From a virus: 64,000 nucleotides of DNA. Location: positions 1 to 64,000 of the IMG/VR virus record IMGVR_UViG_3300046115_000153. One strand, 5' to 3'. Under the pieces are notes generated by a model. It had not been told where the DNA came from. It saw nothing but the letters and a program-made list of their open reading frames with translations, and ran no database searches. Position numbers and translations under genes: made by a program. Numbering within the stretch: position 1 is the first letter of the stretch; each line of letters starts with the position of its first letter. This document shows, one piece after another, positions 211 through 48,337 of the stretch.

Positions 211-867
211 TCACGGGGCCGCCCGCAACCCGCCCGCGACCAGCATCAGCCTGGACGCCACCTTCTCCGACACCGCCGGGTCGTCCGGGTCCACGCCCAC
301 GTCCCGCAGCACCGCTTCCAGCACGTCGAGCACCCGGTCCCGGTAGGCGGCGAACAGGTCGAGCTGCGCCCGCTGCGCCCCCGCGTCCAGCGCCAGCTTG
401 TGGGCCTTGGCCTGCCGGTCCAGCGCGTCGAGCCACATGCCTACCAGCACGTCGGGCATCTCGCGGGCGCCGTTCGCCGAGGTGACCTGCTGGACGAGCT
501 GGACGCGGCCGTCGGCGTCGGCGTCGGCGCGGCGGGTGATCTCCCGTTCCAGGTAGGCGGTGAAGCCGGCGAGTTTGCCGCCCACTTCCAGCAGCCCGAC
601 CATCGGGTCCAGGTCGAGGGCCTGCCCGAACAGGGTGTCGTGGGAGTACACCTCGGCGTAGGTGGCCAGCGCGGCCGACCTACGGCCGTTGGGATGGCGC
701 CCGCCGTGGGCGCGGCACGGCCCGACCCGGTAGTCGGTGCCGTGCCCCTCCGGCCTGCCGCACCGGCCCATCGTCTTGGGGTTGCGGGCGTTGCAGTAGC
801 CGGGCAGGGGAAGCGGGTAGCCGTCCGCGTCGCGTTCCACGTCGTCCTCGGGCTCCTCGTCGTCCAT
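211..867 (-). CDS. putative terminase small subunit-like DNA-binding protein (218 aa)
   Basis: Inner ATG (867) of ORF 211..1263. Acidic N-terminus followed by the Cys/His motif CNARNPKTMGRCGRPEGHGTDYRVGPCRAHGG, which I recall from actinophage small terminases. The function call rests on memory only. Confidence 0.45.
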   Translation of the reverse strand: MDDEEPEDDVERDADGYPLPLPGYCNARNPKTMGRCGRPEGHGTDYRVGPCRAHGGRHPNGRRSAALATYAEVYSHDTLFGQALDLDPMVGLLEVGGKLAGFTAYLEREITRRADADADGRVQLVQQVTSANGAREMPDVLVGMWLDALDRQAKAHKLALDAGAQRAQLDLFAAYRDRVLDVLEAVLRDVGVDPDDPAVSEKVASRLMLVAGGLRAAP

Positions 868-923
868 GTGCGTGACGGTACGCCGGGTTCGGCTCCCGAA
901 AAGAGCCGTACCGTCTCGCCACG

Positions 924-953
924 GTGGACACCAGATGCTAATCTGGTGTCCAC
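924..953. promoter_or_regulatory. perfect inverted repeat GTGGACACCAGAT-gcta-ATCTGGTGTCCAC in a divergent intergenic region (operator candidate)
   Basis: 13-bp arms read directly from the sequence. Lies between the minus-strand start at 867 and the plus-strand start at 1021. The core GTGGACACCA recurs upstream of four other genes. Confidence 0.7.
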
Positions 954-1020: not shown

Positions 1021-1302
1021 ATGAGCCGGTGGGACGACGACGAGGCGCAGGGCTGGGGGGTGGAAGCCGACAGCCTCCTGCTCGACGCCTGCGAGGCGGG
1101 CATGGCCGCGCTGCTGGCCTACGCCCGCGAGCAGTTGGAGGTGCGCATGCCCACTACGGGTGAGGTGCTCGAGCTGCTGGACCGCGCGGAGCGGGAAGCC
1201 GGGCTGGTACCCGGCGACGACCACCGGTCGGACGCCGAGGCGGCGGTCGCCCGGCTGCGCCACCAGCTCGCGTCGGTCCCGTCGTTCGCCGCGGCGGCCT
1301 GA
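1021..1302 (+). CDS. hypothetical protein (93 aa, acidic)
   Basis: ATG 1021 with AGGAG 7 nt upstream. Inner start of ORF 193..1302. GC3-rich frame. Confidence 0.7.
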   Translation: MSRWDDDEAQGWGVEADSLLLDACEAGMAALLAYAREQLEVRMPTTGEVLELLDRAEREAGLVPGDDHRSDAEAAVARLRHQLASVPSFAAAA

Positions 1303-15412: not shown

Positions 15413-17494
15413 CTACGGACAGTGGTCGGCGTGCACGTAGGGTCCGCGTTTTACCGGCTGCACGGCCCACCCCTCGGAAACACCCGCCTGAAACCAGTCG
15501 TTGACCGTCTGCCGGGACGTCCTGTGCCCCTCCGCCGCGAGACGCTGCCAAATGTCGGTGACGCTCGCACCGGCACGGCCCGCCTCCCGCAACAGCTCGA
15601 CCGTCCGCACGCGCGGATCTTTATCGGGAGGAGGACCGGGCGAATCCCCCGGCGTTTCCTTCGCCTGCGTCCATTCGGCCGCGAGAATCTCCTCGAAAGC
15701 CCTGTCCACGTCGGCCTGAGACGGCTCCGCCTCATTCCCCCCGGGCTTTTCGGCCGCTTCCCGCTCGACGCGCATCCGATCGGCTATCTCGTTCATCCGG
15801 GCCGTCGCCGCGCCCATCTCCGCGACCGGGTCGCCACCGGGACTCGCCGGCCCCGGGGACGGCGGGGCGGCGGCCGCCACCTCCGGGACGGCGGCGCCGT
15901 CGAGCATCCAAGCGATGTTCTCCGCGTCCCAGCGGGTCGTCCAGTCCTCCCCTGCGACGGCCGCCGACACCGGGTCCAGCGCCGGACGGCGGCCCGCCAC
16001 GGCGACCGCCACGTGGTCCACGGTCGACGGTGTCACCCGGTAGGTCTGCGACGGCTCCGGCCGCTCCGAATCCTGGGCGACCAGCGCGTTCCCCGGGTAG
16101 GGAATGTCCCGTGCGGTGATACCCGACGAGTTGTCGAACAGCTTGTGGATCTCCTCGTCCTTCGCTTTCATCATGACGAGCACCCCCGATTGGATACGCG
16201 CGTCTATCCCACCCAATGCGTCGCCGGTCGGGCGCAGCGACGTGCGCACAATGTTGATCCCCTCGCCCCGGAACTCCTCCTGGATGGTCAGCAGCAGCTC
16301 GGCGACCCGGACTCGCACCCGGTCGGTGACACCGGAACCGGTGATTCCCTTCCCCTCGTCGACAAGCACCGTGATCTGCGGCAACGTCGCCGACACGGGC
16401 AGCAGGTCGGTGTCGTGCTCCCGCTTCAGCCGGGCGTACTCAGGCGACGCCGCGCGCGCCCTGCCGATCCGTTCGATCATCTCGCACATGACCACGGCGC
16501 GCTCCGGGGTGCGGGTCACGAAATCAATCGCCGGCCTTTCCGCGCGGCCTTCCAACCACGGCCGGACGAAGTCGTCGAGCAGGTTTCCCTTGAAGTCGAC
16601 GACGCATATCAGCTCGTCGACCATCTCCGAAAGGCGCAGCGTGAACACCCGCATCAGGTTGGACTTGCCGCCCTTCTTCTGGCCGACGATCAGCACCGAG
16701 TCCTGTCTGGTGTTGACCAGCGTTTTCGAACTGTCGCGCTTCACCCCGACGTCGTAGTCGTCGTTGGCGCTGCGCATCGGGCAGTCCAACGGGTACGGGA
16801 CCGGGGAGGACAGCGCGTTGTGGGTGGACACGGCCAGCAGCACCCGGTCACGCCCCGCGCCCTCCGCCACGTCGATGCCGCAGCCCTCGGGCAGCCGGGC
16901 ACGGGAAGCCAGGTTCGCAGCCCGGGAAGCCACGTCGGACGCGGTCGCACCACCGCCGAGACGGGCCTCCACCGTGTACCCCGGCTCGTCGCAGTTAGGG
17001 GTGGACGGCCACGCCTCCACCGCCACCACCTGCGCCGACACGTGGCAGATCTCCCTGAGCAGACCCTCCCACTCCTGCGCCCGACGCTGCCTCGAAGTGA
17101 CGGCCAGCTGCGCCGTACGGCGCTCCCGCTCCGCCCGCTCCCGGCGGCCCGCCGCCGAACCCAGCAGACCCAGCACCAGCCCCCCGCCAGCCAAGACGCC
17201 GACCCCCTCCACCGACCACGGCGTACGGGCGGCGGCCCACGCCACCCAGCCCCCCGAGCAGGCGAAACACGCCGCGCGGAAGACCACGGCGAACCCCGTC
17301 AGGCCCGACCGGACGGCGGCCAGCGCGGCGGCCAGCCCCGCGGCGGCACCCGCGAAGGCCGGGTACCGCCAGTCCAGCCCGGTGACGTCGCCGAGAACAG
17401 CCAGCGCGAACGTGGTGACGGTCGCGTTGACCGTGGCCATCACCGGGCCGTGCCGCCACGACAAGTCGAACAGCTGCCACGGCACGGTCGTCAC
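15413..17494 (-). CDS. traB: TraB/TraSA-like FtsK/SpoIIIE-family DNA translocase (693 aa)
   Basis: GTG 17494 overlaps the upstream stop (GTGTGA), an inner start of ORF 15413..18043. N-terminal TM helices, Walker A GQKKGGKSN, Walker B-like ITVLVDEGKG and a C-terminal winged-helix-like tail. Confidence 0.8.
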   Translation of the reverse strand: MTTVPWQLFDLSWRHGPVMATVNATVTTFALAVLGDVTGLDWRYPAFAGAAAGLAAALAAVRSGLTGFAVVFRAACFACSGGWVAWAAARTPWSVEGVGVLAGGGLVLGLLGSAAGRRERAERERRTAQLAVTSRQRRAQEWEGLLREICHVSAQVVAVEAWPSTPNCDEPGYTVEARLGGGATASDVASRAANLASRARLPEGCGIDVAEGAGRDRVLLAVSTHNALSSPVPYPLDCPMRSANDDYDVGVKRDSSKTLVNTRQDSVLIVGQKKGGKSNLMRVFTLRLSEMVDELICVVDFKGNLLDDFVRPWLEGRAERPAIDFVTRTPERAVVMCEMIERIGRARAASPEYARLKREHDTDLLPVSATLPQITVLVDEGKGITGSGVTDRVRVRVAELLLTIQEEFRGEGINIVRTSLRPTGDALGGIDARIQSGVLVMMKAKDEEIHKLFDNSSGITARDIPYPGNALVAQDSERPEPSQTYRVTPSTVDHVAVAVAGRRPALDPVSAAVAGEDWTTRWDAENIAWMLDGAAVPEVAAAAPPSPGPASPGGDPVAEMGAATARMNEIADRMRVEREAAEKPGGNEAEPSQADVDRAFEEILAAEWTQAKETPGDSPGPPPDKDPRVRTVELLREAGRAGASVTDIWQRLAAEGHRTSRQTVNDWFQAGVSEGWAVQPVKRGPYVHADHCP

Positions 17495-21485: not shown

Positions 21486-23573
21486 TCACGGGGCGGCCAG
21501 GAACCGGGGATTCGCCTGGTAGCGCGGGGATTCCGGCCTGCCGCGCTTGGCCGGCGGCGAGGGGACGCGGCGGACGTAGCCGAGGTCCTCGAGGTCGAGT
21601 AGGACGCGCTCGACGTCGGAGACGTGACGGACCCAGTCCTGCCCGGCGAGTCCTCGGTGCAGTTCCCGAACACTCAGCGTCCACTCCGAACCCGACTTTG
21701 GTGACGCTGCGTCGATAGCGTCAGAAGCGTCTGATCGGTGACGCTCAAAATACGCGCCTGTACTCCGCGTAGCGGAGCGGTGGGTGCGGCGGATCCATTC
21801 GAGGGCGGTCTCGAGCTGGTCGCGCCGTGACGCTCCGTCGGCGAGCACCTCGCGGGCGTGGGCCACCAGGAACGGGGCCAGTGCCAGCGCGGCGGCCATC
21901 TCCGGGCCGGTCACCCGCGGGTGCGCGTCACCGGGCCGCTCGGCGAGCGCGAACAGCGCCGCGACCCGGACGAGGGTGCCGGGCAGCTTGGCCGCCCACG
22001 CGGCCACCTCGGAGAGGTCCCCGAGGTCGGGGTGCAGCCGCTGCTCGTGCGGCCAGCGCCAGGCGTCGAAGGCTGCCCGTGCGTCGGCGTCGAGCAGCAC
22101 CGTGCCGGGCGACCCGCCGGTGGCCGCGTCCTGCCCGGCCGCGAACACCTTGCCCACGGTCGCGACCCACTCGGCCTCGACCTCCGGGGGTGTCTCCGGC
22201 GCGTCGTTGGCCCGCGTCCCGACGGTGGTGGCGGGCCACGCGAACAGCATCCGGGGCAGCAGGCCGCGGGCGGTGAACTGCCGGACCCTGACGGCCGCCG
22301 CGATCACGTCGGGTTGGACGACGAAGCCGAGGGCGAGGAACGGCCGTTCGATGTCGAGCGGTTCGCGGGAGACCCGGTCGACCATGACGTGCTCGCCGTT
22401 GTACGCCTTCAGCACCAGGTCGAGGTTGGCGGAGCCGTCCTTGGAGTACCGTCCGGCCAGCGTCCCGAGCAGCCCGCCCTCGGCGGTGAGCACGGCCATC
22501 GGCCCGTCCTGGCTCTCCATGAGCCGGGCCAGTTCCTCGGGTGTGGTGTCGTCGCAGGTGAGCCGGGTCCGCCTCGGCGGGGTGGTGTCGGCCAGCCGCA
22601 CCGCGAGGTCCTCGGCCTCGGCGGCGGCCTCGTCGGCGGCGTGGCCCGGCCCGGCTTTCGCGGCGGCGTCGAGGGCGGCCTTGGCCCGCGCTTCCAGGAT
22701 CCTGTAGTGGGCGGTGGCGGCGGCGAAGGTCTCGGCCTCGGTGGCGCGGACGCCGCGGGTGATCGCGGTCAGTGCGCCGCCGACGGCGTTGACGACCGCC
22801 GACTTGCGGGCGCCGGAGTCGGACAGTGCCACGAGGTACAGTGCGGTCTGTTCCGTCCAGCCGGGCCGGACCCGGATTTCCCAGTTGCCCCGGGTGGCGG
22901 CGGACAGCACCGCGAGGGCGGCGAACGCGGCGAGGTCGGGCGGGGTCTGGGTGTTGGCGGCGACGGCGGCCACCACTCGCCGGACCGTGCCGGGCAGTGC
23001 GGCGGTCGGGAACTCCGGCAGCCGCGCGGACAGCGGCTTCGGTTCGGGCCAGCGGTTGCCCGATCGCCACGCGACGACGTCGAGGACGCCTCGCAGGTGG
23101 CGTTCCAGTTCGCCCCAGCCGTCGCGGTCGTCGACCGTCGTGGCGAGCTGCGCGGCCCGCGCGATCCCCGCGGCGGCCTCCCGGCCCCGCGCGGCGTCGG
23201 CGACCGCCCGGACCTGGCCGGGCAGGGTCGACGGCCCGACGGCCCGGTCGACGAGCTGGCGGAGGTAGTGCGTCCCGCCGACGGTGTCGAGGACGTCGCG
23301 GCCGTCCCCGCCGCGCCCGGCCACTTCGGGGGTGCGGTGCGCGAGCAGCGCCGCGACGGCGACGTCGCTGGCCGGTCGCCCGGCGGCGAGCAGCTCGCGC
23401 ACCGCACGGTGGACTTCGCCGTGGGCGGGTCTGCGGAAGTCGGACGCGTCGAGGTCGGCGACCACCAGTTCGGCGGCGCGCTGGTCGGTCAGTGCCGCGC
23501 CCAGGCAGTTCTGCTCCGCGCGCAGGACCGCCCGGTCGTAGTCCGACCCGTCGGGGTCGCCGTCAGTTGTCAT
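21486..23573 (-). CDS. DnaB-N-terminal-domain / DUF3987-type replication helicase-like protein (695 aa)
   Basis: ATG 23573 after CAGGAGGAG, an inner start of ORF 21486..25154. N-terminal LRAEQNCLGAAL pattern resembles the DnaB N-domain. Large DUF3987-like core and a C-terminal winged-helix. Confidence 0.7.
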   Translation of the reverse strand: MTTDGDPDGSDYDRAVLRAEQNCLGAALTDQRAAELVVADLDASDFRRPAHGEVHRAVRELLAAGRPASDVAVAALLAHRTPEVAGRGGDGRDVLDTVGGTHYLRQLVDRAVGPSTLPGQVRAVADAARGREAAAGIARAAQLATTVDDRDGWGELERHLRGVLDVVAWRSGNRWPEPKPLSARLPEFPTAALPGTVRRVVAAVAANTQTPPDLAAFAALAVLSAATRGNWEIRVRPGWTEQTALYLVALSDSGARKSAVVNAVGGALTAITRGVRATEAETFAAATAHYRILEARAKAALDAAAKAGPGHAADEAAAEAEDLAVRLADTTPPRRTRLTCDDTTPEELARLMESQDGPMAVLTAEGGLLGTLAGRYSKDGSANLDLVLKAYNGEHVMVDRVSREPLDIERPFLALGFVVQPDVIAAAVRVRQFTARGLLPRMLFAWPATTVGTRANDAPETPPEVEAEWVATVGKVFAAGQDAATGGSPGTVLLDADARAAFDAWRWPHEQRLHPDLGDLSEVAAWAAKLPGTLVRVAALFALAERPGDAHPRVTGPEMAAALALAPFLVAHAREVLADGASRRDQLETALEWIRRTHRSATRSTGAYFERHRSDASDAIDAASPKSGSEWTLSVRELHRGLAGQDWVRHVSDVERVLLDLEDLGYVRRVPSPPAKRGRPESPRYQANPRFLAAP

Positions 23574-25243
23574 CGGCTCCTCCTGGTGTCCGTGGTCCTG
23601 GCGTTCGCGAAGTGACGGTCGACGCGGGGTGACGCCCGCCGGACGGTGATCAGGTCGGCGACCTCGGCTTTGGTGGCACCGTCGGGGACGTCGAGGCGCA
23701 TCCGCGCGGCCAGGTCGAGCTGCGCGGGGCTGGGCGGCTGTTTGCCCGACCGCCACGACGCGGTGCGCGACGTGCCGGAGAACCCGCGCGCCGAGGCGCG
23801 GTCGATGGCGAGCGCCCGCTGTTCGCCGAGCGCCATGGCCAGGGCGAGGTCGGGGACGGCGCCGGACCACCGGGGGTTTCCCCGGCCGGGCGGGAATTCG
23901 GCGAGCGCCCACCTTTCGCCGGCCTGGTCGGGGTAGAGGGCGACGTAGCCTTTGCCTGCGGGGGCGAACCAGTGGCCGCCGTCGGTCCGCAGCCAGACGG
24001 CTTTCGACGTCCCGAACAGGTCGACGTCGACCGCTTTCCCGAGTTTTACCCGCGTCACCCGTTCGACGGCTTCGGTGAGCGTCTCCCCGTCTTCGGGGCG
24101 TTCCTTTTCGGCCTTGTCCGGGATCTCGCCGGCCGCGAGGTCGAGGAGGGTGCACAGTTTGTTGTCTGCCGTCGTCCCGACCAGGTCGAGAATCAGCGCG
24201 TCCGTTTTCCCTGGGTACGGCCTCAGTACTCTTCCGCACATTTGGACAAACAAAGGCGCGGACCGTGTCGGCCGTGCCATGACCGCGACCTCGGCGCGCG
24301 GGATGTCGGTTCCCTCGGTCAGGACGGCGCAGTTGCACAGGACGTCGAGGCCGCCGTTTCGGAGCCCTTTTATCGCCGTGTCGCGGGCGTCGGGGTCCAT
24401 CGCGCCCCAGACCGCTTCGGCTTTGAACCCGGCTTCGCGCAGCGCTTGCGCGGCGGCCTGCGCGGTGGCGACGGTGGGGGTGAACACCAGTCCCGGTCGG
24501 CCGGGGGCGTGGGTGGCGTACGCCTGCGCGACGGCGGTCTCGAAGTGGGCTTCGGTGAGCGCGTCGCCGAGCTGACCCGCGGCGTAGTCCCCCGCGCTGA
24601 CGTCCACGTCGTCCAGGTCGAGCCCGATCGGGACGGAGATCCCTTTCGGGTTGACGAGGTACCCGTCGGCGACCATCTCGAGTACGGACCGTTCGTAGGC
24701 GACTTCCTGCCAGACGGACCCGAGCCCGACTTTGTCGCCTCGAGCGAGGGTGGCGGTGACGCCGAGGGTGCGCGTTCCGCCTTCGCGGAAGCATCCGAAG
24801 TATTCGAGGATTCCGAGGTAGGTCGGGCTGACGGAGTGGTGCGCCTCGTCTACGACTACTTGCGCGAAGGCGTCGCGCGGCCATTTCTCTATGCGCCGCC
24901 GCGACGCGAGCGTCTGTACGCTCGCTACGACCGCCTGACATTCCGGCCCGGCGTTCCGGGTCGCCATCTCGACACCTACGACGACGTCCGGGTCGATGGC
25001 CGCGATCTTCCCGGCGGCTTGGTCGACGAGTTCTTTTCGGTGTGCGAGGACGAGGGTCCGTCCGGGCTCTTCGGAAACCATGTGCGCGAAGCAGACCGTC
25101 TTGCCTCCGCCAGTCGCCATGATCATGGCGACGCGGTTCGTGCCCCTTTCCCACGCGGCCCGGACCGCGTCGACCGCCTCGCGCTGGTAGGGCCGCAGCG
25201 GCAATCCGGGAGTGCTGTTCCGGCTCTCCAGAAGAGTCGTCAC
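23570..25243 (-). CDS. SF2 DEAD/DEAH-box DNA helicase (557 aa)
   Basis: GTGA-coupled inner start of ORF 23570..25300. Motifs ATGGGKT, VVDEAHH and TATLARGD. Confidence 0.8.
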   Translation of the reverse strand: MTTLLESRNSTPGLPLRPYQREAVDAVRAAWERGTNRVAMIMATGGGKTVCFAHMVSEEPGRTLVLAHRKELVDQAAGKIAAIDPDVVVGVEMATRNAGPECQAVVASVQTLASRRRIEKWPRDAFAQVVVDEAHHSVSPTYLGILEYFGCFREGGTRTLGVTATLARGDKVGLGSVWQEVAYERSVLEMVADGYLVNPKGISVPIGLDLDDVDVSAGDYAAGQLGDALTEAHFETAVAQAYATHAPGRPGLVFTPTVATAQAAAQALREAGFKAEAVWGAMDPDARDTAIKGLRNGGLDVLCNCAVLTEGTDIPRAEVAVMARPTRSAPLFVQMCGRVLRPYPGKTDALILDLVGTTADNKLCTLLDLAAGEIPDKAEKERPEDGETLTEAVERVTRVKLGKAVDVDLFGTSKAVWLRTDGGHWFAPAGKGYVALYPDQAGERWALAEFPPGRGNPRWSGAVPDLALAMALGEQRALAIDRASARGFSGTSRTASWRSGKQPPSPAQLDLAARMRLDVPDGATKAEVADLITVRRASPRVDRHFANARTTDTRRSR

Positions 25244-25764
25244 GGGCGCGCCGGAGCGGGCGCGGGCGACGACTTCGACTTCACGCGGCGTGCCGCGCAC
25301 CGTTCCCCGCCCGCGACGCGCTCGGCCTTCACGAACCGTCCGACCGCCGCGTCCCAGACGTACCGCCGCACGACCTTGCCGAGCGCTTCGGCCCGGTCGG
25401 CGGTCCAGCCTGACCCGTACGTCTTCGAGTCGGGGCGGTAGACCCTCAGCAGGTGCGTGCGGTCCTGGGCGATCAGCTTGTCGCGGGCTTTGAACCCGTC
25501 GGGCTCCCAGCGCCTGTTCTTCGGCAGGTGTTCGACGAACTTCCTGTTTTCGACGGTCCAGCCGAACGTGGCGGCCCGCGAACGGGCCACGGTGTCGACC
25601 CCTTCGGCGCCGCCGGAGACGACGTACCCTTCGTCGGTTTCGATCTCACGCCGGAATTGGGTGCAGGCTAGGTGGACCAGCGTGGAGGCGCAGGCTTCCG
25701 CGAGTTCGCCGGGGAGCGACGTCGACCCGACGACGGCCAGCCGTACCGGCACCACCGCGTTCAC
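25240..25764 (-). CDS. SLOG/DUF2493-like protein (174 aa)
   Basis: GTGA-coupled start, C-terminal part of ORF 25240..26400. VVGSTSL...VVSGGAEGVDTVA pattern. Confidence 0.55.
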   Translation of the reverse strand: MNAVVPVRLAVVGSTSLPGELAEACASTLVHLACTQFRREIETDEGYVVSGGAEGVDTVARSRAATFGWTVENRKFVEHLPKNRRWEPDGFKARDKLIAQDRTHLLRVYRPDSKTYGSGWTADRAEALGKVVRRYVWDAAVGRFVKAERVAGGERCAARRVKSKSSPAPAPARP

Positions 25765-26003
25765 GGCGCCTCCGCCCGTTCGGCCAGCACCACGTCGTAG
25801 CCCGCCCACCGGGCCAGTGCCACCAGAGCGTCGACTTCGACGTGCCGGCCGTCGAGCAGCCGGTTGACGGTGGTGTTCGCGATTCCCGTCTCGCGGGCGA
25901 CGGCCCGTAGGGACATTCCCCGCGTTCGCGCCCGCCGTTCGACCGCGCGGGCGACCTCCGCGGCGAGCAGGTCGGCGTCCGGGTCGCGGCGGTGCGCGCT
26001 CAC
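25761..26003 (-). CDS. XRE-type HTH protein (80 aa)
   Basis: GTGA-coupled at both ends. MSLRAVARETGIANTTVNRLLDG. Confidence 0.6.
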   Translation of the reverse strand: MSAHRRDPDADLLAAEVARAVERRARTRGMSLRAVARETGIANTTVNRLLDGRHVEVDALVALARWAGYDVVLAERAEAP

Positions 26004-27742
26004 CGGTCGGCCGCCAGTGCGGCGAGGACCCGTTCGGCGACCAGCCGTGCGGCCGGGGGGGTGACGGCGTTCCCGGCCATGCGGACCCTGTCGCGCTTGG
26101 TCCCTCGCATGAGGTACGTGTCGGGGAAGGCCATGGCCGCGAGGATCTCGGCGGGTTCGAGCATCCGGAACGTGCACCCGTCGACTTCGGTGTCGGGCAC
26201 GTCGCCGGGGGCCCGGGTGACCAGCGCGTGCCGGTCCTTGGTGGTGACTGTGCTCGCCGGGTACCGGACGTGCCGGGCCACGCCGTTGCCGTAGTAGGGC
26301 ACGAGCACGGAGTCGGGGACCGTGACGAGCGACTGGTGGCCCGTGGTTGTGACGACGCGGGTTGGCTGGTCGAACGGGGTGCACGTTCTTGCGACGTCAC
26401 CGCGCCCGCCGCTGTTGTTGTTCCGTATCACGAACCCGCTCGGGACGACGAGCCCCTGGTGGTTGCCGTTGGCCGAGACGGTGGTCAGCGGGTCGGCGGT
26501 CGACGTGGCACGGACGTTCTGCCTCAGTACCGCGAGGAACGCCTCGGGGACGACGACCGAGTTTTCGAGCCGCGTCGTCCGCGTCCGCACAGGTTCGGAC
26601 GCCGGCCGGGCGCGCGACCCGTCCCGCGCTTCGACCGGTACGACCGTCGGCGGGCAGACGATCCCGTCGGTCTCGCGGGTGGTGCGTACCCGCATGGGGA
26701 CGTCGACTGGCCGCGGTCCGTCGTTCCACGTCCCGCCGGCCGGGACGAGCATCGGCGGCGTGACGAAGGCGTCGGACGCGGTCGTGGTCCGGACCGGCAC
26801 GGGCCGGTTCGGGGGCCGTACCCGAGAGTCGGGTATCCGTTCGAAGGTGTTGCCTCCGACGGGGACGCCGACGGGCCGCCCGTACCGGGCCAGCCCCGCT
26901 CGGATGCGTTCCCGTGTCGCCGCCGCCAGCGGCCGGTTCCGGTCGCCGATCAGTCCGCCGAGGTCAGTCCAGTTGATCGCGGTGGCGGCGGGCAGTGCGA
27001 AGGGTTCGACTTCGCCCCGGCAGGCCGGGCAGTGGTAGGTGTACTGCGCCCGGTACCGGCCCCAGTGCTGCTCGAAGGGCCGCTTCCACGACTGGACGGC
27101 GTCGACTCGCGCTTCGCAGGTCGGGCACCATCCGGGTGGCCTGACGTCGAGGTCGGGGGCGGTGGCGCCTTTTCGCCAGAAGACGACGTAGATCCGGTCG
27201 CGGTACTGGGGCGCGCCGAGCCAGCCGTAGTTCTTGCCGTGCGCGAACGCGCTGTTGAGGTAGACGACGTGGTGGTCGTAGCCGGCGGCGTCCATGGCCG
27301 CCAGCCACGCCGGCCAGTACATCCACCGGACGGCGTCGACCACGTTTTCGACGATGACGGCCCGGTAAGGCCTGCCGCGCATCAGCATGGCCTCGACGAA
27401 GCGCGGGACGTCCCACATGGTCGCTCGTGACCGTTCGGCGGACGGGTCGGGGCCGTCTTCGCCGAAGATGTCCGCCTGCCCGGTGGCTCTACGCACGCCT
27501 TTGGCTACAGAATGGTTGGTACATTCCGGGCTCGCCCAGAGGACGTCGGTGGTCGGGTAGTGGCGCGGGTCGGTCCGCGAGATGTCGGCGCAGGAGTGTT
27601 CGGTCTCCGGGTGGTTCAGGCCGTGGACTTCGACGGCGAGCTTGTTGTGGTTGCTGGCGTGGATCACGTACATCCCTGCCTGCTGCATGCCCTTGGTCGA
27701 CCCGCCGCAGCCGCAGAAGAGGTCGAGGACGGTGGCGCTCAC
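26000..27742 (-). CDS. DNA (cytosine-5)-methyltransferase with Zn-ribbon insert and expanded TRD (580 aa)
   Basis: Track ORF. Motif I DLFCGCGG, motif IV SPECTNHS, ENV, motif X GNAVTPP. CPTC...CPAC insert. Six P-x-T-x-T...LV repeats. Confidence 0.9.
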   Translation of the reverse strand: MSATVLDLFCGCGGSTKGMQQAGMYVIHASNHNKLAVEVHGLNHPETEHSCADISRTDPRHYPTTDVLWASPECTNHSVAKGVRRATGQADIFGEDGPDPSAERSRATMWDVPRFVEAMLMRGRPYRAVIVENVVDAVRWMYWPAWLAAMDAAGYDHHVVYLNSAFAHGKNYGWLGAPQYRDRIYVVFWRKGATAPDLDVRPPGWCPTCEARVDAVQSWKRPFEQHWGRYRAQYTYHCPACRGEVEPFALPAATAINWTDLGGLIGDRNRPLAAATRERIRAGLARYGRPVGVPVGGNTFERIPDSRVRPPNRPVPVRTTTASDAFVTPPMLVPAGGTWNDGPRPVDVPMRVRTTRETDGIVCPPTVVPVEARDGSRARPASEPVRTRTTRLENSVVVPEAFLAVLRQNVRATSTADPLTTVSANGNHQGLVVPSGFVIRNNNSGGRGDVARTCTPFDQPTRVVTTTGHQSLVTVPDSVLVPYYGNGVARHVRYPASTVTTKDRHALVTRAPGDVPDTEVDGCTFRMLEPAEILAAMAFPDTYLMRGTKRDRVRMAGNAVTPPAARLVAERVLAALAADR

Positions 27743-27990
27743 GGCATTGCCACCCGGAACACGACGTAGGCGGCCAGTTCTCCGTCTCGCAGCGCCGCCG
27801 CGACCACAGGTTCGTCCCGCTCGTCGGCGCAGTCGAACAGCCAGTCGGTGGAGTCCCCGGCGGCGAGCGGCACGACGGCGTGCAGCCGGTCGTCGGGTAC
27901 GCCGACGGCGGCCCGGAACTCGTGGTCGTACCGGTTGCGCCGGCAGAACTCGAGGGAGACGGCGAAGCGTTCGCGTTCGGTGTCGTTCAC
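27739..27990 (-). CDS. hypothetical protein (83 aa)
   Basis: Track ORF. ATGA-coupled at both ends. Confidence 0.6.
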   Translation of the reverse strand: MNDTERERFAVSLEFCRRNRYDHEFRAAVGVPDDRLHAVVPLAAGDSTDWLFDCADERDEPVVAAALRDGELAAYVVFRVAMP

Positions 27991-28784
27991 AGTGCCACCT
28001 CGCTGTGGTGGTCGGTGAACAGGTCGCCTTGGGACAGTCGGCGTGCGATGACGGCGCAGTACGTTTCGTCGGCTTCGATCCCGACGGCGCGCCTGCCCAG
28101 CTGGCGTGCCACGGCGAGCGTGCTGCCGCTGCCGGCCGTCGGGTCGAGCACGGTTCCGCCGGGCGGGCAGGAGTAGGCGAGAAGTGGCCGCAAGATCTCG
28201 AAGGGCTTTTCGGTGGGGTGCAGGGCGACGCCGCGCAGGTTGTTAGCCCGAATCACCGAGCGGACGAGGCGGGTGCCGTCGTCGACCCACGCACCCCGGC
28301 CGATGGAACCCGTGTGAGTACGAGCGCCTCCGGACCTGACCGTGGACCCCCGATGGTGCTCGGCCGCTTCGCGCTGGGGATCGAACCGAAGCTCTCCCCA
28401 TGACCCCTGGTACCAGTGCGTGATCAGTTCGTGTACTCGCTTAAATCGGTCGGCGGCGAAGTTCGTCCCGGCGTTCTTCTCCCAGACCGTCGTGTCGACC
28501 GTCCATTCGCCGACGACGTCTTGGGCGAGTTTCCAGCCGGCGAACTCGTCGCGGCGGTCCAAGAACATGCGCATGCTGCCGAAGCACCACATCTGCCGGG
28601 TGCGCTCGGCGACGACAGCGGGCCAGCCGTCGGGCCACCGGTCCCATTCGAGGGAGGTCTCCTGGTAGGGAGGGTCGACGATCGCGACGTCGGCGGTCAG
28701 GTCCAGTTCGGGCAGGACTGCCCGGCAGTCGCCTAGGTACAGGTCGACCCCGCCGTCCGAGTAGTACGGCTTGACGGCGCTCAC
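27987..28784 (-). CDS. N6-adenine / N4-cytosine DNA methyltransferase (265 aa)
   Basis: Track ORF. Motifs DPPY, HPTEKP and VLDPTAGSGST. Confidence 0.85.
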   Translation of the reverse strand: MSAVKPYYSDGGVDLYLGDCRAVLPELDLTADVAIVDPPYQETSLEWDRWPDGWPAVVAERTRQMWCFGSMRMFLDRRDEFAGWKLAQDVVGEWTVDTTVWEKNAGTNFAADRFKRVHELITHWYQGSWGELRFDPQREAAEHHRGSTVRSGGARTHTGSIGRGAWVDDGTRLVRSVIRANNLRGVALHPTEKPFEILRPLLAYSCPPGGTVLDPTAGSGSTLAVARQLGRRAVGIEADETYCAVIARRLSQGDLFTDHHSEVAL

Positions 28785-30151: not shown

Positions 30152-31284
30152 CCGTTCAACCTGATCGGCATGAGCATGTGGGTGTAGCTGCCCTGGTCGT
30201 CGCCGACGACCAGATGGGGTTTGCCGGGTTCGACGAAGCGGATGCGGGCGATGTCGCCACTGGTGGCGGTCAGGGCGTCTCGCAGGTAGTGCGGGTTGTA
30301 GGCCAACGTGACCGTGTCCAGCCCGTCCAGCTGGCAGGAGGCTTGGATTTCGATCTGCCCGGCGCCGTTCGGGTCTTTCGCCCGAACGGTCAGCACGTCG
30401 GCGGCTGCTGCCAGCATCACCGGGGCGGTTTTCCCGGTGACCGGTTTCACCCGGTCCAACGTGTCGAGCAGCACCGCGCGGTCGACGGTGAGGGTGACGG
30501 CCAGCTGGTTGTCGGCGGGTAGCAGCCGCCGGTAGGGCGGGAATTTGGCGTCGATCAGACGGGTGGTGGCGTGCCGGTCTTCCCAGGCGAGCCCGGCCAG
30601 TCCCGCACCGTGCGCACCGGTGCCCACGTGCAGGGTGACGGCACCGCTGGCGCTGTCGGCGAGGTCGCGCAGCGTTTCGGCGGGCAGAACCGCCGAGATC
30701 ACGCTGTCGGCGCCGTCTGCGAGCTGGCAGTCCCAGTCGACGTCGGCGGCGGCCAGCCGGTAGCGGTCGGTGCAGGCGATGCGTAGCGGCAGGCCGGCGG
30801 TGGCTTCCACCTGCACTCCGGTGAGCGCGGGCAGGGTGTCGTCTTTCCCGGCGGCGACGGTGACCCGTCTGACGGCGGTGCGCAGCCTGTCCGCGTCGAC
30901 CGTGCCGAGCGCGGCGGGCAGGGCGGGCAGGGTCGGGTAGTCGTCGCAGTCCAGGGTGGGCAGCCGGGCGGTGAGCCCGTCGGAGGTGACGACGACGAAC
31001 GAGCCGTCGGAGACCAGTTCGACCTGTTCGCCGGGCAGTCGTTCGGCGACCTGGGCGAGCAGCCGGCCTCCGACGAGCAGCCGCCCGCCGGCGTGGACGG
31101 TGGCGACCACGGCGACGTGCCGGGCCGCCTCGTAGTCGAACGCGTCGACCGTGAGCCGCCCGTCGTCCGCGGTGAGCAGCAGCCCGCCGAGCACCTGCAT
31201 CTGGGTGGTGGGTCGGCTTGGGAGGGTGCGGGCGGCCCATCCGACGGCGTCGCGGAATTCGGCTGCGCCCAGGGTGGTTTTCAC
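30148..31284 (-). CDS. dnaN: DNA polymerase III beta sliding clamp (378 aa)
   Basis: GTGA-coupled inner start of ORF 30148..31386. Three-domain clamp pattern ...ACTDRYRLA...ATTRLIDAKFPPY...YNPHYL...MLMPIRL. Confidence 0.85.
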   Translation of the reverse strand: MKTTLGAAEFRDAVGWAARTLPSRPTTQMQVLGGLLLTADDGRLTVDAFDYEAARHVAVVATVHAGGRLLVGGRLLAQVAERLPGEQVELVSDGSFVVVTSDGLTARLPTLDCDDYPTLPALPAALGTVDADRLRTAVRRVTVAAGKDDTLPALTGVQVEATAGLPLRIACTDRYRLAAADVDWDCQLADGADSVISAVLPAETLRDLADSASGAVTLHVGTGAHGAGLAGLAWEDRHATTRLIDAKFPPYRRLLPADNQLAVTLTVDRAVLLDTLDRVKPVTGKTAPVMLAAAADVLTVRAKDPNGAGQIEIQASCQLDGLDTVTLAYNPHYLRDALTATSGDIARIRFVEPGKPHLVVGDDQGSYTHMLMPIRLNG

Positions 31285-32835: not shown

Positions 32836-32873
32836 GACGTGCGCACCTCCCGTGTGGGTGCGTTGCTGTTGGA

Positions 32874-34523: not shown

Positions 34524-35269
34524 GGGGTGCCGCCGATCTGGCGGCGGGTGGCGATTACTTCGAAGCGGGGGCCGGGCGGACGGCCGCGCATGATCCCGGC
34601 GGGCCGGGGGGTCTTGCGGAGGTGTCCGGCGTCGACGAGGTCGGCGAGTACGGCGGCGACGGCTTCGGAGTGGTAGGCCCAGTGCTGCCCGGCGAGTCCT
34701 CGGTGGGCGTCTCGGAGGCTGAACGTGTCGCCTTCGGCGAGTTCGCGGTGGCGGACCCAGCGGAGTACGGATTCGGCGGGGGTGGGTGGTGCGGGCGGGG
34801 GTTGGACGAGTCCGGCGTCGGCGAGTAGTTGGAGTGCGGTGCGTTTGGCTTCGGAGCGGGGGAGGTAGCCGGCGCGGGCGGCGGCGTCGAGTCCGCTGAT
34901 GTGGTCGGCGAGCGGGCTGGCGATGGGCTGCGGCTGGTCGTCGGGCTGTTCGTAGCGGCCGGTCTTGCGGATGGCGGGCAGGACTTCGTCCACGATCCAG
35001 TCCTGGAAGTCCTCGGCGGCGGGTAGGTCGCTCCGCATCGCCAGCCGGTAGATGCCGGGTTCTGAGACGACGGTGAGGTCCTGGATTCCGCCAGGGGTAC
35101 TCATCGGGTGAGTACCCCTGTGTCGCTCGCGCAGGATGCGCACAGCGTTGGCGGCGTCCCGGTAGCCGAGGATCTTCGCGGCGTCGGCGGCGGCGAACCA
35201 CGGCTGGTCGTCGATCAGGACGGTCCGGAGTTCGGTGCCGTTGAACGCGAAGGGAACGATCTCGGTCAC
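34520..35269 (-). CDS. Bro-N domain protein / antirepressor-like (249 aa)
   Basis: GTGA-coupled inner start of ORF 34520..35335. FNGTELRTVLIDDQPWFAAADAAKILGY. C-terminal winged-helix is shared with 21486..23573. Confidence 0.8.
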   Translation of the reverse strand: MTEIVPFAFNGTELRTVLIDDQPWFAAADAAKILGYRDAANAVRILRERHRGTHPMSTPGGIQDLTVVSEPGIYRLAMRSDLPAAEDFQDWIVDEVLPAIRKTGRYEQPDDQPQPIASPLADHISGLDAAARAGYLPRSEAKRTALQLLADAGLVQPPPAPPTPAESVLRWVRHRELAEGDTFSLRDAHRGLAGQHWAYHSEAVAAVLADLVDAGHLRKTPRPAGIMRGRPPGPRFEVIATRRQIGGTP

Positions 35270-35475
35270 GCGGCACCGCCAGGGACGAGCGCTTCGATCT
35301 CGTCTTTGCGGAAGCGGCGGTGCGCGCCGTGCCACTTGACGGTCAGCTCGCCGCGGTCACCCATGCGGGTGAGGCGTTTGCGGCCGTAGCCGCTGATGTC
35401 CGCCGCTACGGCGGGAGGGAGCCACACGACGGGAGGACTGGTGTCCACCGGTGCGAGCAGGGCAGGATGACCCAC
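35266..35475 (-). CDS. excisionase-family (MerR-like HTH_17) DNA-binding protein, about 69 aa; start uncertain
   Basis: Within ORF 35266..35550. ...RKRLTRMGDRGELTVKWHGAHRRFRKDEIEAL. The N-terminal part of the ORF covers a terminator hairpin. Confidence 0.5.
   Translation of the reverse strand: MGHPALLAPVDTSPPVVWLPPAVAADISGYGRKRLTRMGDRGELTVKWHGAHRRFRKDEIEALVPGGAA
35439..35448 (-). promoter_or_regulatory. GTGGACACCA motif copy (reads GGTGGACACCAGT on the minus strand)
   Basis: Read from the sequence at the 5' end of the Xis-like gene. Confidence 0.5.
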
Positions 35476-35518
35476 GGGTCGGCCTTTCGTTCGAGAGACG
35501 GTTGAGGCCGGTTCCAAC

Positions 35519-36414: not shown

Positions 36415-36433
36415 GGGGCGAAATGGTGTCCAC
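36415..36433 (-). promoter_or_regulatory. 19-bp element GTGGACACCATTTCGCCCC (minus strand), copy 1
   Basis: Identical to 37465..37483. Ends 61 nt upstream of the GntR start. Confidence 0.7.
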
Positions 36434-37464: not shown

Positions 37465-37483
37465 GGGGCGAAATGGTGTCCAC
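37465..37483 (-). promoter_or_regulatory. 19-bp element GTGGACACCATTTCGCCCC (minus strand), copy 2
   Basis: Identical to 36415..36433. Ends 48 nt upstream of the lipoprotein start at 37417. Confidence 0.7.
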
Positions 37484-47250: not shown

Positions 47251-47544
47251 TTACGCCGCCGTTCCCCGCGCCTCGTCGCGGCAAGCGGTCCGGCTCTTCG
47301 TAAGAGGCGTCACGAGCACGAAGAGGGCGTCGAACTCGACGCCGGCCACCTCCGCGATCCTCTCCGCCAGCTTCGGCGTGCAGGACGTCCGGCGACCGGA
47401 CAGCAGGTGCCCGATCATGCCGTTCGACCGAAGCCCGAGGTCCTTGGCCAGCTGGCGTTGAGAGATCCCGGCAAGGGCCGCCCGTAGCGTGCCCGGCTGG
47501 ACGCGGAGCCGGGCCGTGGTGGTGGTCCGCACCCAGTTGCCCAA
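47251..47544 (-). CDS. XRE-family HTH regulator, Cro-like by position (93-97 aa; TTG 47544 or GTG 47532)
   Basis: Inner start of ORF 47251..47832 after GGAGGAG. ISQRQLAKDLGLRSNGMIGHLLSGRR. Confidence 0.75.
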   Translation of the reverse strand: MGNWVRTTTTARLRVQPGTLRAALAGISQRQLAKDLGLRSNGMIGHLLSGRRTSCTPKLAERIAEVAGVEFDALFVLVTPLTKSRTACRDEARGTAA

Positions 47545-47571: not shown

Positions 47572-47581
47572 TGGTGTCCAC
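47572..47581 (-). promoter_or_regulatory. GTGGACACCA motif copy upstream of the Cro-like gene
   Basis: Read from the sequence. 28-40 nt upstream of the start. Followed by the inverted repeat GAGTCG-tgt-CGACTC (47588-47602) and a third GAGTCG at 47610-15. Confidence 0.6.
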
Positions 47582-47758: not shown

Positions 47759-48337
47759 GTGACGGAAGAGGCGGGCGAGCCGACCGCGTTGCAAGAACTT
47801 ATCCTCGAGGCCAAGCGGGGCGAGGACGACATCTCCTACGCCCGGCTGGCTGCCCGCGCGGGCAGGCGGCCGGACGGCAGGCCGTGGATGCTCCCCGGCC
47901 AGATCCAGAAGTACGCGACCCTGACTTTGGAAGACCCGCCGCGCCCGGCCGCGATCACGGGGCTGGCGCGGGCGCTCAGACGGCCCGAGAGGGTCGTGCG
48001 CGCGGCGATAGGTGAGACGTTCGGGTTCCGCGACCCGTTGCCGGAGGAGGTGCGCGGTCTCAGCTACGCGCACGGGCTGGCCGAGCGTGCCGACGCGCTG
48101 GACGACCCGGTGGTACGGCAGAAAGTGCTCTGGGCGTGGGAGCACCTCCTGCGGAGCGTCGAACCGGCTCTTGACGTCGCCGTGCCGGAGACTGTCGGTG
48201 AGGTCGGGGAGGCGTTGCTGGACGCGGTCCGGGCGATGAGTGACACCCAGCGCCGCAAGGCCAGGGCCGTCCTCGACGAGGTCCTCGGCGAGGGTGACGA
48301 GGTGCCGGAGAACACGAACGGGCCGGCGCCCGCCTAG
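47759..48337 (+). CDS. hypothetical regulator, CI-like by position (192 aa)
   Basis: Track ORF. CAGGAG upstream of the GTG. Divergent from the Cro-like gene. Possible HTH around DISYARLAARAG. Confidence 0.55.
   Translation: MTEEAGEPTALQELILEAKRGEDDISYARLAARAGRRPDGRPWMLPGQIQKYATLTLEDPPRPAAITGLARALRRPERVVRAAIGETFGFRDPLPEEVRGLSYAHGLAERADALDDPVVRQKVLWAWEHLLRSVEPALDVAVPETVGEVGEALLDAVRAMSDTQRRKARAVLDEVLGEGDEVPENTNGPAPA

What the first reader, a model, noticed from the sequence alone, without database searches (positions are those of the whole stretch)
924..953. Head-to-head pair of a 13-bp site whose core GTGGACACCA marks the 5' region of six genes across the element
GTGGACACCAGAT-gcta-ATCTGGTGTCCAC sits between the divergent terminase-small-like gene (start 867) and the 12-kb plus-strand gene block (start 1021).

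The same core, always oriented 5'-GTGGACACCA-3' on the coding strand of the downstream gene, occurs at four further places:
- 35439-48, at the 5' end of the Xis-like HTH gene (inside the provisional CDS 35266..35475, whose start is uncertain);
- 36424-33, upstream of the GntR gene;
- 37474-83, upstream of a lipoprotein gene;
- 47572-81, upstream of the Cro-like gene.

Apart from the Xis-like copy, the sites lie 28-88 nt upstream of the start codons.

About one random 9-mer hit is expected in 64 kb on both strands. Six oriented, promoter-proximal hits suggest a dispersed operator (stoperator-like) or a dedicated promoter element. It would link the immunity switch, the moron island, the orphan block and the late genes.
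Basis: seen in the sequence. Interest (0 to 1): 0.65.

Follow-up and report, generated by a model that had tools for sequence, protein, structure and literature searches.

The report
Conserved operator network of an actinophage
A 10-base DNA word found six times in this roughly 100-kb high-GC phage genome sits at the same promoter positions in related uncultivated phages, so it is almost certainly the binding site of the phage's own regulator, an ordinary kind of phage switch in a new lineage.

Summary
GTGGACACCA occurs exactly six times at the stated coordinates, against 0.16 expected. All copies lie in non-coding DNA or at a gene's 5' edge. Variants with one or two mismatches occur at background level.

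Related metagenomic phages (A, B, C, D and three short contigs) keep the site at the same positions while the flanks diverge:
- the palindrome between the g2 and g3 homologues;
- the site abutting the only -10-like hexamer upstream of the Cro-like gene;
- the sites before the lipoprotein and GntR genes;
- the site inside the 5' end of the Xis-like gene.

Bases 6-10 (CACCA) are invariant in 25 sites. Base 5 switches from A to G in both palindrome arms of phages A and D, and also at A's Cro-like promoter.

This pattern fits an operator for a phage-encoded, specificity-determining DNA-binding regulator. The best candidate is the 192-aa protein in the CI position, possibly together with the Cro-like protein. 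It argues against a host factor, a CRISPR-type hairpin or a packaging site. GntR is unlikely to be the binder. The "terminase-small-like" label is unsupported.

Whether the internal sites repress, activate or block elongation (stoperator-like) is untested. This is a new member of a known kind.

Just outside the window lies a type IV-B-like Cas cluster with a Cas6e-like gene.

The parts
924..953 (.). Perfect 13-4-13 palindrome made of two operator cores, GTGGACACCA at 924-933 (+) and 944-953 (-), between divergent genes g2 and g3.
   Evidence: It is the only strongly conserved block of the g2-g3 intergenic region in phages W, A, B and D.
936..944 (+). Predicted extended -10 element, TGcTAATCT, of the rightward promoter for g3 and the 12-kb block of small genes. 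It lies in the centre of the palindrome. The right arm would cover about -7 to +3 and the left arm about -27 to -18.
   Evidence: TAAnnT preceded by TGc is conserved in W, A, B and D. It is the only TANNNT on that strand in the A, B and D intergenic regions. The transcription start is inferred, not mapped.
875..880 (-). Predicted -10 hexamer TACCGT, 7 nt before the g2 ATG. This suggests a leaderless g2 mRNA. g2 has no Shine-Dalgarno sequence.
   Evidence: TAC(C/G)(G/A)T is conserved 41-43 nt from the palindrome in W, A, B and D. In A the gene is instead leadered, with an SD. Inferred.
211..867 (-). g2, 218 aa, the first gene of the leftward operon that continues outside the window (Cas-like cluster, terminase). 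It carries Cys/His motifs and its function is unknown. It is not demonstrably a small terminase.
1021..1302 (+). g3, 93 aa, the first gene of the 12-kb plus-strand block. It is conserved in phages A and B.
47572..47581 (-). Single operator core at the Cro-like (early) promoter. Its first two bases are the last two of the -10-like hexamer TAGAGT (47585-47580). It would cover about -8 to +2.
   Evidence: The same arrangement occurs in A (TAGAGTGGGCACCA), B (TACGGTGGACACCA) and C (TACGGTTGACACCA). This hexamer is the only TANNNT on either strand of the roughly 200-bp switch region in all four phages.
47251..47544 (-). Cro-like XRE-family HTH protein, 97 aa, first gene of the early operon. Candidate binder.
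   Evidence: Pfam HTH_3/HTH_31. Homologues occur in A, B and C.
47759..48337 (+). 192-aa protein in the CI position: divergent from the Cro-like gene and next to the integrase. Best candidate for the operator-binding immunity repressor.
   Evidence: It gives a weak match to PHROG 12831 'transcriptional repressor', as do all four homologues. The predicted N-terminal five-helix HTH-like domain has pLDDT of about 75. It is conserved in A, B and C. Binding is inferred.
37474..37483 (-). Single operator core 44 nt downstream of the tRNA-Trp gene and 28 nt upstream of the -10-like hexamer TAAGAT (37445-37440) of the lipoprotein gene.
   Evidence: Orthologous sites: B CTGGACACCA, L029 CCTGACACCA, L030 CTGGACACCA, L031 ACCGACACCA.
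36424..36433 (-). Single operator core 17 nt upstream of the -10-like hexamer TAACCT (36406-36401) of the GntR gene. It shares the 19-mer GTGGACACCATTTCGCCCC with the 37474 site.
   Evidence: Orthologous sites with 17-18 nt spacing: L029 GTGGACACCA, L030 ATGTACACCA, L031 GTTGACACCA.
35439..35448 (-). Single operator core inside the 5' end of the Xis-like HTH gene (35266-35475), about 120 nt downstream of a predicted promoter. This is the position most compatible with an elongation block.
   Evidence: GGACACCAG is conserved in B, L029 and L030 although the surrounding N-terminal codons diverge.

Best explanation
GTGGACACCA (consensus nTGG[A/G]CACCA) is the operator of a phage-encoded sequence-specific DNA-binding regulator that sets the phage's regulatory, probably immunity, specificity. 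The most likely binder is the 192-aa protein encoded divergently from the Cro-like gene, possibly sharing the site with the Cro-like XRE protein.

Proposed action at each site:
- At the early promoter, one site overlaps the -10 element and the start point, so a bound protein would exclude RNA polymerase.
- Between g2 and g3, two sites in inverted orientation sandwich the extended -10 of the rightward promoter, so a dimer or two monomers would shut it. They also lie 41-43 bp upstream of the promoter predicted for the leftward g2/late operon.
- Three more sites lie inside the early transcription unit, co-oriented with the early-promoter site. They sit after the tRNA, after the lipoprotein gene and after the GntR gene, next to the promoters of the following genes. 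They would act as auxiliary operators or as roadblocks that insulate downstream lytic genes.

Shown: the sites exist, are far above chance, are positionally conserved, and one base co-varies among sites of a genome. Inferred: promoter positions, the identity of the binder, and the sign of regulation at each site.
For: 1. Six exact copies against 0.16 expected, all non-coding or at a gene edge.
2. Phylogenetic footprint. The palindrome is the only strongly conserved block of the g2-g3 spacer in W, A, B and D. The Cro-promoter site is conserved in W, A, B and C. The lipoprotein, GntR and Xis sites are conserved in 4-5 relatives with diverged flanks. Positions 6-10 are invariant in 25 of 25 sites.
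3. Co-variation. Phage A has G at position 5 in both palindrome arms and at its Cro promoter. Phage D has G in both arms despite W-like flanks. W and B have A at all sites. This points to a trans factor that differs between phages.
4. In all four switch regions the site abuts the only TANNNT hexamer present. This is the classic operator position.
5. An HTH protein pair in divergent CI/Cro arrangement lies next to the site and is conserved in A, B and C.
6. The word also marks the starts of two further transcription units, g3 rightward and g2 leftward.
Against: - No binding or transcription data exist, and all promoters are consensus guesses.
- A's two contigs (L004, L016) and C's two contigs (L015, L029) are linked only by coming from the same sample, so part of the co-variation argument assumes one genome per sample.
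- Position 3 (G/T) varies among sites within the C-sample contigs, so not every variant is a specificity switch.
- The 192-aa protein has no Pfam domain, only a weak PHROG match, a low-confidence model (pLDDT 58) and no significant structural neighbour.
- Recognition-helix differences track the operator variant equally well in the 192-aa and the Cro-like proteins, so the binder is not identified.
- Sites upstream of the lipoprotein and GntR promoters keep a phased spacing to the -10 (17-18 or 27-28 nt). This fits activation as well as repression.
Confidence: 0.65

Rival explanations
1. Same DNA site, but the bound phage protein is mainly a temporal activator or dual regulator, for example the Cro-like protein. 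It would shut the early and g3 promoters by occlusion and turn on the promoters that carry the site upstream: lipoprotein, GntR and the g2/late operon.
For: - Spacing from the site to the next -10-like hexamer is conserved and phased: 17-18 nt at the GntR site in four phages; 27-28 nt or 17 nt at the lipoprotein site.
- The distance from the palindrome to the predicted g2 -10 is a constant 41-43 bp in W, A, B and D.
Against: - Constant spacing may only reflect shared ancestry.
- The centres (-34.5, -45.5, about -60, about -80) are not all on one face of the helix.
- The Xis site lies inside a CDS far from any promoter.
- There are no expression data.
Confidence: 0.15
2. The word is a core promoter element read by a dedicated sigma factor or a polymerase-associated phage factor.
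For: All copies lie within 90 nt upstream of a start codon or at a gene's 5' edge. The four single copies share one orientation relative to transcription.
Against: - The position relative to the nearest TANNNT hexamer varies from overlapping to 28 nt upstream.
- No second conserved block lies at fixed distance.
- The word is GC-rich and unlike a melting element.
- No sigma-like gene was found among the proteins scanned, though the scan was incomplete.
Confidence: 0.07
3. The element works at the RNA level. The palindrome would form a hairpin, or the 5' leaders from the palindrome (containing UGGUGUCCAC) would pair with GUGGACACCA in the other mRNAs.
For: - The A-to-G change is compensatory in both arms in A and D.
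- The single copies all put GUGGACACCA on the sense strand.
Against: - At the Cro promoter the word overlaps the only -10-like hexamer, so most of it would not be transcribed.
- With the -10 in the loop, the palindrome would not be transcribed as a whole.
- The inner 3 bp of the stem are not maintained in A and B.
- There is no Rfam match.
- Single sites have no local complementary partner.
Confidence: 0.04
4. The word is the site of a host protein, such as DnaA. The reverse complement TGGTGTCCAC resembles the Streptomyces DnaA box TTGTCCACA (consensus recalled from my own knowledge).
For: 7 of 9 bases match the DnaA-box consensus.
Against: - The variants that co-vary within phages alter box-critical bases: TGCCCAC in A and D, TGTCAAC in C and L031.
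- The last A of the box is not conserved.
- A host factor would not give phage-specific variants.
Confidence: 0.03
5. The palindrome is a packaging or recombination site recognised by g2 acting as a small terminase, and the other copies are accessory sites.
For: The palindrome always lies next to the g2 homologue, and g2 heads the operon that contains the large terminase.
Against: - g2 has no terminase signature in Pfam or PHROGs and no structural match.
- The large terminase is 4.5-9.4 kb away.
- The other copies sit at the immunity switch and at promoters up to 47 kb away, and they share the same variant.
Confidence: 0.03

Closest known systems
Repressor-operator/stoperator systems of Cluster A mycobacteriophages (L5 gp71, TipsytheTRex repressor; PMC9283540, PMC6550527) and of R4-like Streptomyces phages (PMC10276819)
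   Same: - A short asymmetric site is used singly.
- One copy lies at the early lytic promoter and further copies lie in short intergenic gaps of the transcribed region.
- The single copies are co-oriented with transcription.
- The site sequence differs between related phages, in step across a genome.
- The candidate repressor is of similar size (192 aa against 183 aa) with an N-terminal HTH.
   Different: - Only five loci in about 80 kb examined, against 8 to more than 20-30.
- The conserved core is 9-10 bp rather than 13 bp.
- One locus is a perfect inverted pair.
- The candidate repressor shows no detectable sequence similarity to the L5-type repressor (profile search of PDB sequences found nothing) or to any sequenced phage (tblastn).
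- Monomer binding and elongation block are untested.
Lambda-type CI/Cro switch
   Same: Divergent repressor-like and Cro-like HTH genes next to an integrase. An operator overlaps the early promoter's -10 and start point.
   Different: - The switch region holds one half-site-sized copy, not three palindromic operators.
- The 192-aa protein has no S24 peptidase or other recognised C-terminal domain.
- The same site recurs at distant promoters.
phiC31 repressor (c gene) with conserved inverted repeats (CIRs) at many early promoters (own knowledge, not checked in a paper here)
   Same: A Streptomyces-type temperate phage in which one repressor recognises a conserved repeat spread over several promoter regions.
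   Different: CIRs are 17-bp inverted repeats at every locus, whereas here only one locus is inverted. There is no protein or DNA similarity to sequenced phages.

Membership tests
L5-type repressor/stoperator system | Many (more than 20) copies of a 13-bp asymmetric site across the genome (PMC9283540) | tested here: not met
   There are 6 copies at 5 loci in 64 kb plus 16.6 kb of flanks. The conserved core is 9-10 bp. One- and two-mismatch variants occur at background level. About 19 kb of the genome was not seen.
L5-type repressor/stoperator system | Sites lie in promoters and short intergenic spaces, with one orientation relative to transcription | tested here: met
   All copies are non-coding or at a gene edge. 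All 4 single sites are co-oriented with the early operon. The sample is small (p about 0.06 for orientation).
L5-type repressor/stoperator system | One site overlaps the early lytic promoter | tested here: inconclusive
   The site abuts the only TANNNT hexamer of the switch region in W, A, B and C. The promoter is predicted, not mapped.
L5-type repressor/stoperator system | The repressor is homologous to gp71 (HTH plus Stoperator domain) | tested here: not met
   A profile of four homologues against all PDB sequences at E up to 10 gave no repressor hit. tblastn against 50,697 phage records gave no match. The fold search gave no significant hit, but the model is poor.
L5-type repressor/stoperator system | Monomer binding and orientation-dependent block of elongation | not testable with these tools
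   Needs EMSA or SEC-MALS and reporter assays with flipped sites.
Lambda-type CI/Cro switch | Divergent repressor and cro genes flanking the operators | tested here: met
   47251-47544 (-) is an XRE HTH protein and 47759-48337 (+) has a weak repressor PHROG match. The integrase is at 49169-50119.
Lambda-type CI/Cro switch | Several palindromic operators between the two genes; CI with a C-terminal S24 self-cleavage domain | tested here: not met
   There is one 10-bp copy, plus at most a degenerate GACAC repeat that is not conserved. There is no S24 or other Pfam domain.
CRISPR repeat / Cas6 hairpin | Repeat-spacer array, or a hairpin that co-occurs with cas genes | tested here: not met
   No array was found in about 80 kb and there is no Rfam CRISPR-DR hit. 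Relatives A, B and D keep the palindrome but lack the csf/cas6 genes.
DnaA box | Match to TTGTCCACA, maintained across relatives | tested here: not met
   The match is 7 of 9 at best. Variants in A, D, C and L031 change core bases.
GntR/HutC operator of the phage's own GntR | The site co-occurs with the regulator gene | tested here: not met
   Phage B has no GntR homologue in the 60 kb fetched but keeps the palindrome, Cro, lipoprotein and Xis sites. 43 kb of B was not seen.

The most novel reading that the evidence does not exclude
In this phage alone, the pre-existing palindrome would double as an RNA hairpin substrate for the Cas6e-like protein encoded 2.4 kb downstream in the same operon. 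It would load the adjacent array-less type IV-B-like Csf complex with an RNA whose 10-nt arm matches the dispersed GTGGACACCA sites. That would be RNA-guided self-regulation layered on the protein operator network. A milder novel reading, at about 0.2 probability, is that the 192-aa protein is a new fold family that independently evolved monomeric, orientation-dependent stoperator-type repression.
Probability: 0.02. Interest if true: 0.85.

Novelty: new member of a known kind. Interest (0 to 1): 0.35.

Why it matters
The finding gives a concrete, testable regulatory map for an uncultivated lineage of roughly 100-kb high-GC phages. No sequenced phage is related to this lineage.

One short operator ties together the immunity switch, the start of a 12-kb block of orphan genes, the head of the late/Cas operon and a small island of accessory genes. 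The A/G variant at position 5 predicts heteroimmune groups that could be tested directly.

The operator also offers a handle for identifying a repressor family with no known domains. It is not a new principle, because dispersed repressor sites are well known in actinobacteriophages.

Tried and rejected
- CRISPR-type hairpin for the neighbouring Cas6e-like gene. Rejected because relatives A, B and D keep the palindrome without cas genes, and no array exists.
- DnaA box. Rejected by the co-varying changes.
- GntR as binder. Unlikely, because the fetched 60 kb of the 103-kb phage B has no GntR homologue.
- Small terminase or packaging site. No support for g2 as TerS.
- Known RNA family. Only the tRNA was found.
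- Sigma-70 consensus scans around the sites were almost empty and not informative for this GC-rich genome.
- Searches for close relatives in INPHARED and IMG/VR, by DNA and by single proteins, mostly failed.
- The genome-collection scan and most metagenome hits for the central 20-mer were chance matches in low-GC organisms.
- Structure prediction and fold search of the 192-aa protein and of g2 gave low-confidence models and no significant neighbours.
- A second degenerate copy about 20 bp upstream of the Cro site (GTCGACACGA) is not conserved in relatives.
- The 8-mer GGACACCA at 23584-23591, before the primase gene, is absent from phage B and is probably chance.
- Comparing recognition helices of the Cro-like and 192-aa proteins with operator variants did not discriminate between them.

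Full report
**Observation**

Dinucleotide-preserving shuffles give 0.16 expected copies, and none of 100 shuffles reaches six. Positions 924-953 form a perfect 13-4-13 palindrome between the divergent starts at 867 (-) and 1021 (+).

Variants with one mismatch (five extra hits) are at the chance level. Variants with two mismatches are not enriched outside genes. About 78% of the window is coding by my GC3-based gene calls. All five loci nevertheless lie in non-coding DNA or at a gene's 5' edge. The 16.6 kb that flank the window on the source-like contig hold no further copy.

**Context**

The window is part of a phage-like genome of roughly 100 kb with 71% G+C. It has three transcription units:
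- An early leftward unit starts at a Cro-like XRE gene (47544). It runs through recombination and replication genes: YqaJ, DNA polymerase III beta, a C5 methylase, a helicase and a DUF3987 primase-helicase.
- A rightward 12-kb block of small genes starts at 1021.
- A leftward unit starts at g2 (867). It continues outside the window through a Cas-like cluster and the terminase. If the genome is circular, as the layout suggests, it then continues into the tail and lysis genes at the other end of the window.

A 192-aa gene lies divergent from the Cro-like gene, next to a tyrosine integrase. No sequenced phage is related at the DNA or protein level.

**Relatives**

Homologues of g2, of the 192-aa protein, of a tail protein, of DNA polymerase III beta and of the lipoprotein led to related metagenomic contigs:
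- phage A: Logan ERR10446212, loci L004 and L016;
- phage B: one 103-kb contig, JGI 3300037440, loci L006, L017 and L018;
- phage C: JGI 3300038383, loci L015 and L029;
- phage D: Hainich groundwater, loci L019 and L026;
- three short contigs: L030, L031 and L032.

**Conservation of the palindrome**

The g2-g3 spacer is poorly conserved apart from the palindrome. The palindrome reads:
- W: GTGGACACCAGAT-TAGC-ATCTGGTGTCCAC
- A: GTGGGCACCACAT-TAGC-ATCTGGTGCCCAC
- B: GTGGACACCACTT-TAGC-ATCTGGTGTCCAT
- D: CTGGGCACCAGAT-TAGC-ATCTGGTGCCCAC

**Conservation of the single sites**

| Site | Sequences in each phage or contig |
|---|---|
| Upstream of the Cro-like gene | W TAGAGTGGACACCA; A TAGAGTGGGCACCA; B TACGGTGGACACCA; C TACGGTTGACACCA |
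| Upstream of the lipoprotein gene | W GTGGACACCA; B and L030 CTGGACACCA; L029 CCTGACACCA; L031 ACCGACACCA |
| Upstream of the GntR gene | W and L029 GTGGACACCA; L030 ATGTACACCA; L031 GTTGACACCA |
| Inside the 5' end of the Xis-like gene | W, L029 and L030 GTGGACACCA; B TCGGACACCA, in an otherwise diverged N-terminus |

Over 25 sites, positions 6-10 (CACCA) never vary and position 4 varies once. Position 5 is A in 20 sites and G in 5. All five G sites belong to A and D.

**Co-variation**

Phage A carries G at position 5 in both arms and at its Cro promoter. Phage D carries G in both arms although its flanks resemble W at about 78% identity. W and B carry A at every site. This is the behaviour expected of the recognition site of a factor that differs between phages, as in heteroimmune phage groups. 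It is not the behaviour expected of a site for a conserved host protein.

One caveat applies. A's two contigs are linked only by the sample they come from, and the same holds for C's two contigs. Position 3 (G/T) varies among the C-sample sites, so only position 5 is a clean switch.

**Position relative to promoters**

TANNNT hexamers are the -10 consensus typical of actinobacteria (established knowledge). They are rare in these regions.
- In each of the four Cro/repressor spacers (about 200 bp), the only TANNNT on either strand is the one whose last two bases begin the site. The site would then cover about -8 to +2.
- In the palindrome, the centre reads TGcTAAnnT toward g3 in W, A, B and D. 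This is an extended -10, and the two arms flank it.
- A second conserved hexamer, TAC(C/G)(G/A)T, lies 41-43 bp from the palindrome. In W, B and D it is 6-7 nt before the g2 ATG, and g2 lacks a Shine-Dalgarno sequence there. This suggests a leaderless g2 mRNA.
- At the GntR site the next TANNNT follows after 17-18 nt in four phages. At the lipoprotein site it follows after 27-28 nt, or 17 nt in L031.
- The Xis site lies about 120 nt downstream of a predicted promoter, inside the gene.

These placements are too varied for a fixed promoter element. They fit a DNA-binding regulator.

**Who binds**

The divergent gene pair next to the Cro-promoter site is the obvious candidate. The Cro-like protein is an XRE-family HTH protein. 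The 192-aa protein and its three homologues give a weak match to PHROG 12831, 'transcriptional repressor'. Its model shows an N-terminal five-helix HTH-like domain.

The 192-aa protein has no Pfam domain, no similarity to any PDB sequence including the L5-type repressor, and no significant fold neighbour. Both proteins differ most in phage A, whose operator differs, so the comparison does not decide between them. GntR is unlikely, because B shows no GntR homologue in the 60 kb fetched.

**Mechanism proposed**

The regulator occludes the early promoter and the g3 promoter. This step is an inference from position.

The three internal sites each follow an accessory gene (tRNA-Trp, lipoprotein, GntR) and precede the next promoter. 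They could be auxiliary operators. They could be activator sites, since their spacing to the -10 is conserved and phased. They could also be orientation-dependent roadblocks like the stoperators of L5-type and R4-type phages (PMC9283540, PMC6550527, PMC10276819). None of these can be settled without experiments.

**Rejected alternatives**

A striking neighbour raised the idea of a CRISPR-type hairpin. Just beyond the window start, the g2 operon encodes a Cas6e-like protein, Csf1, Cas11, Csf2, Csf3 and a CysH-like PAPS reductase. However, A, B and D keep the palindrome without these genes. No array exists in about 80 kb, and Rfam finds only the tRNA. The co-varying changes also undo the resemblance to a DnaA box. 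g2 shows no terminase features.

**Comparison and verdict**

The system works like the dispersed repressor-operator networks of actinobacteriophages. It is not a member of the L5 family: there are too few sites, the core is shorter, one locus is an inverted pair, and the candidate repressor is not homologous. It is a real, conserved regulatory element of an undescribed phage lineage, that is, a new member of a known kind. Interest is moderate to low for the element itself. The Cas cluster seen in passing deserves its own look.

Noticed in passing
L001 11469-16097 (source-like contig, 0.6-5.2 kb beyond window position 1, same strand as g2): The phage carries a type IV-B-like Cas cluster: Cas6e-like (351 aa, with a roughly 160-aa C-terminal extension), Csf1/Cas8, Cas11, Csf2/Cas7, Csf3/Cas5 and a CysH-like PAPS reductase. 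It lies in the operon between g2 and the terminase, and no CRISPR array exists in about 80 kb examined. Type IV-B systems are described as lacking both an array and a crRNA-processing enzyme (PMC8175902), so the Cas6e-like gene is unusual. Relative D has the PAPS reductase directly after the g2 region without csf genes, and A has a PAPS-reductase gene further down its g2 operon, also without csf genes. The csf/cas6 block therefore looks like an insertion next to a backbone cysH-like gene.
   Followed up: partly
L001 11383-11436: Upstream of the Cas6e-like gene lies a good -10 hexamer, TAGAAT. It is preceded at 17 nt by AAGGACACGA, a 7-of-10 match to the operator with the same spacing as at the GntR site. 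This may be chance.
   Followed up: no
L003 2994-4193 (about 5.8-7 kb beyond window position 64000): A TnpB/IS605 OrfB-type gene (OrfB_IS605, Cas12f1-like_TNB) is inserted on the opposite strand among the tail genes.
   Followed up: no
window 36364-36403 and 35577-35587: Candidate operators for the phage's GntR/HutC-type regulator. The inverted repeat CCTAACTG...CAGTTAGG encloses the palindrome CGGGATATCCCG between the predicted GntR -10 and its start codon. A similar GGGTTATCCCG lies inside the predicted TTGACC-17-TAGAGT promoter upstream of the Xis-like gene. L030 has CCGGGATAACCGG at the equivalent place.
   Followed up: partly
window 35519-35548: A 12-bp-stem hairpin, GTCCCGGCGGTG-ttgacg-CACCGCCGGGAC, lies between the GntR stop and the Xis-like start. 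Phage B has a hairpin at the same place with changed stem bases but the same loop (L018 5887-5918). It has no U-tract. It could be a terminator, an attenuator or a protein site.
   Followed up: no
window 47633-47646 and 47680-47710: The switch region holds two other blocks conserved in W, A, B and C. GGGACTTCCGGCCC is unique in the window. GCAAGTATC is the reverse complement of a GATACT -10-like element for the 192-aa gene, and it is duplicated in W as a 12-bp tandem repeat. These are possibly a second operator and the repressor promoter.
   Followed up: partly
window 37528-37602: A tRNA-Trp (CCA) gene lies 44 nt upstream of the 37474 site. The Logan contig of the same phage starts inside this tRNA and lacks window 23338-37558. 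This is probably an assembly break, since the window's own contig is 99.9 kb. Relatives B, L029 and L030 have no tRNA there.
   Followed up: partly
window 865-880; L006 9989-10003; L019 181-195: g2 has no Shine-Dalgarno sequence. A conserved TACCGT lies 6-7 nt before its ATG in W, B and D, the layout of a leaderless mRNA. In A the homologue instead has an SD and a GTG start.
   Followed up: partly
window 211-867; proteins P0003, P0004: The g2 family carries a Cys/His motif (G-x-CNA...RC...GHGTDY..GPC..HGG.H.NGR). The motif is duplicated in the longer homologues. This suggests a zinc-ribbon nucleic-acid-binding N-terminus followed by long helices. No known family or fold match was found.
   Followed up: partly
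L017 16070-16900; L015 7966-8475: Phages B and C have no integrase between the lysis genes and the 192-aa gene homologue, where W and A have a tyrosine integrase. The lineage may therefore include non-integrating or differently maintained members. A's g2 contig has a weak ParB_N hit.
   Followed up: no
window 61643-62053: A 129-bp tandem repeat (about 3 copies, 72-74% matches) lies inside the very long minus-strand gene that runs off the window end (60848-64000). On the source-like contig this gene carries a PhageMin_Tail domain, as in tape-measure proteins.
   Followed up: no
window 15413-17494; about 39457-39705: The phage encodes an FtsK/SpoIIIE-like protein (PHROG 31069) and a WhiB-family protein. 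Both are typical of actinobacterial mobile elements and support an actinobacterial host.
   Followed up: no
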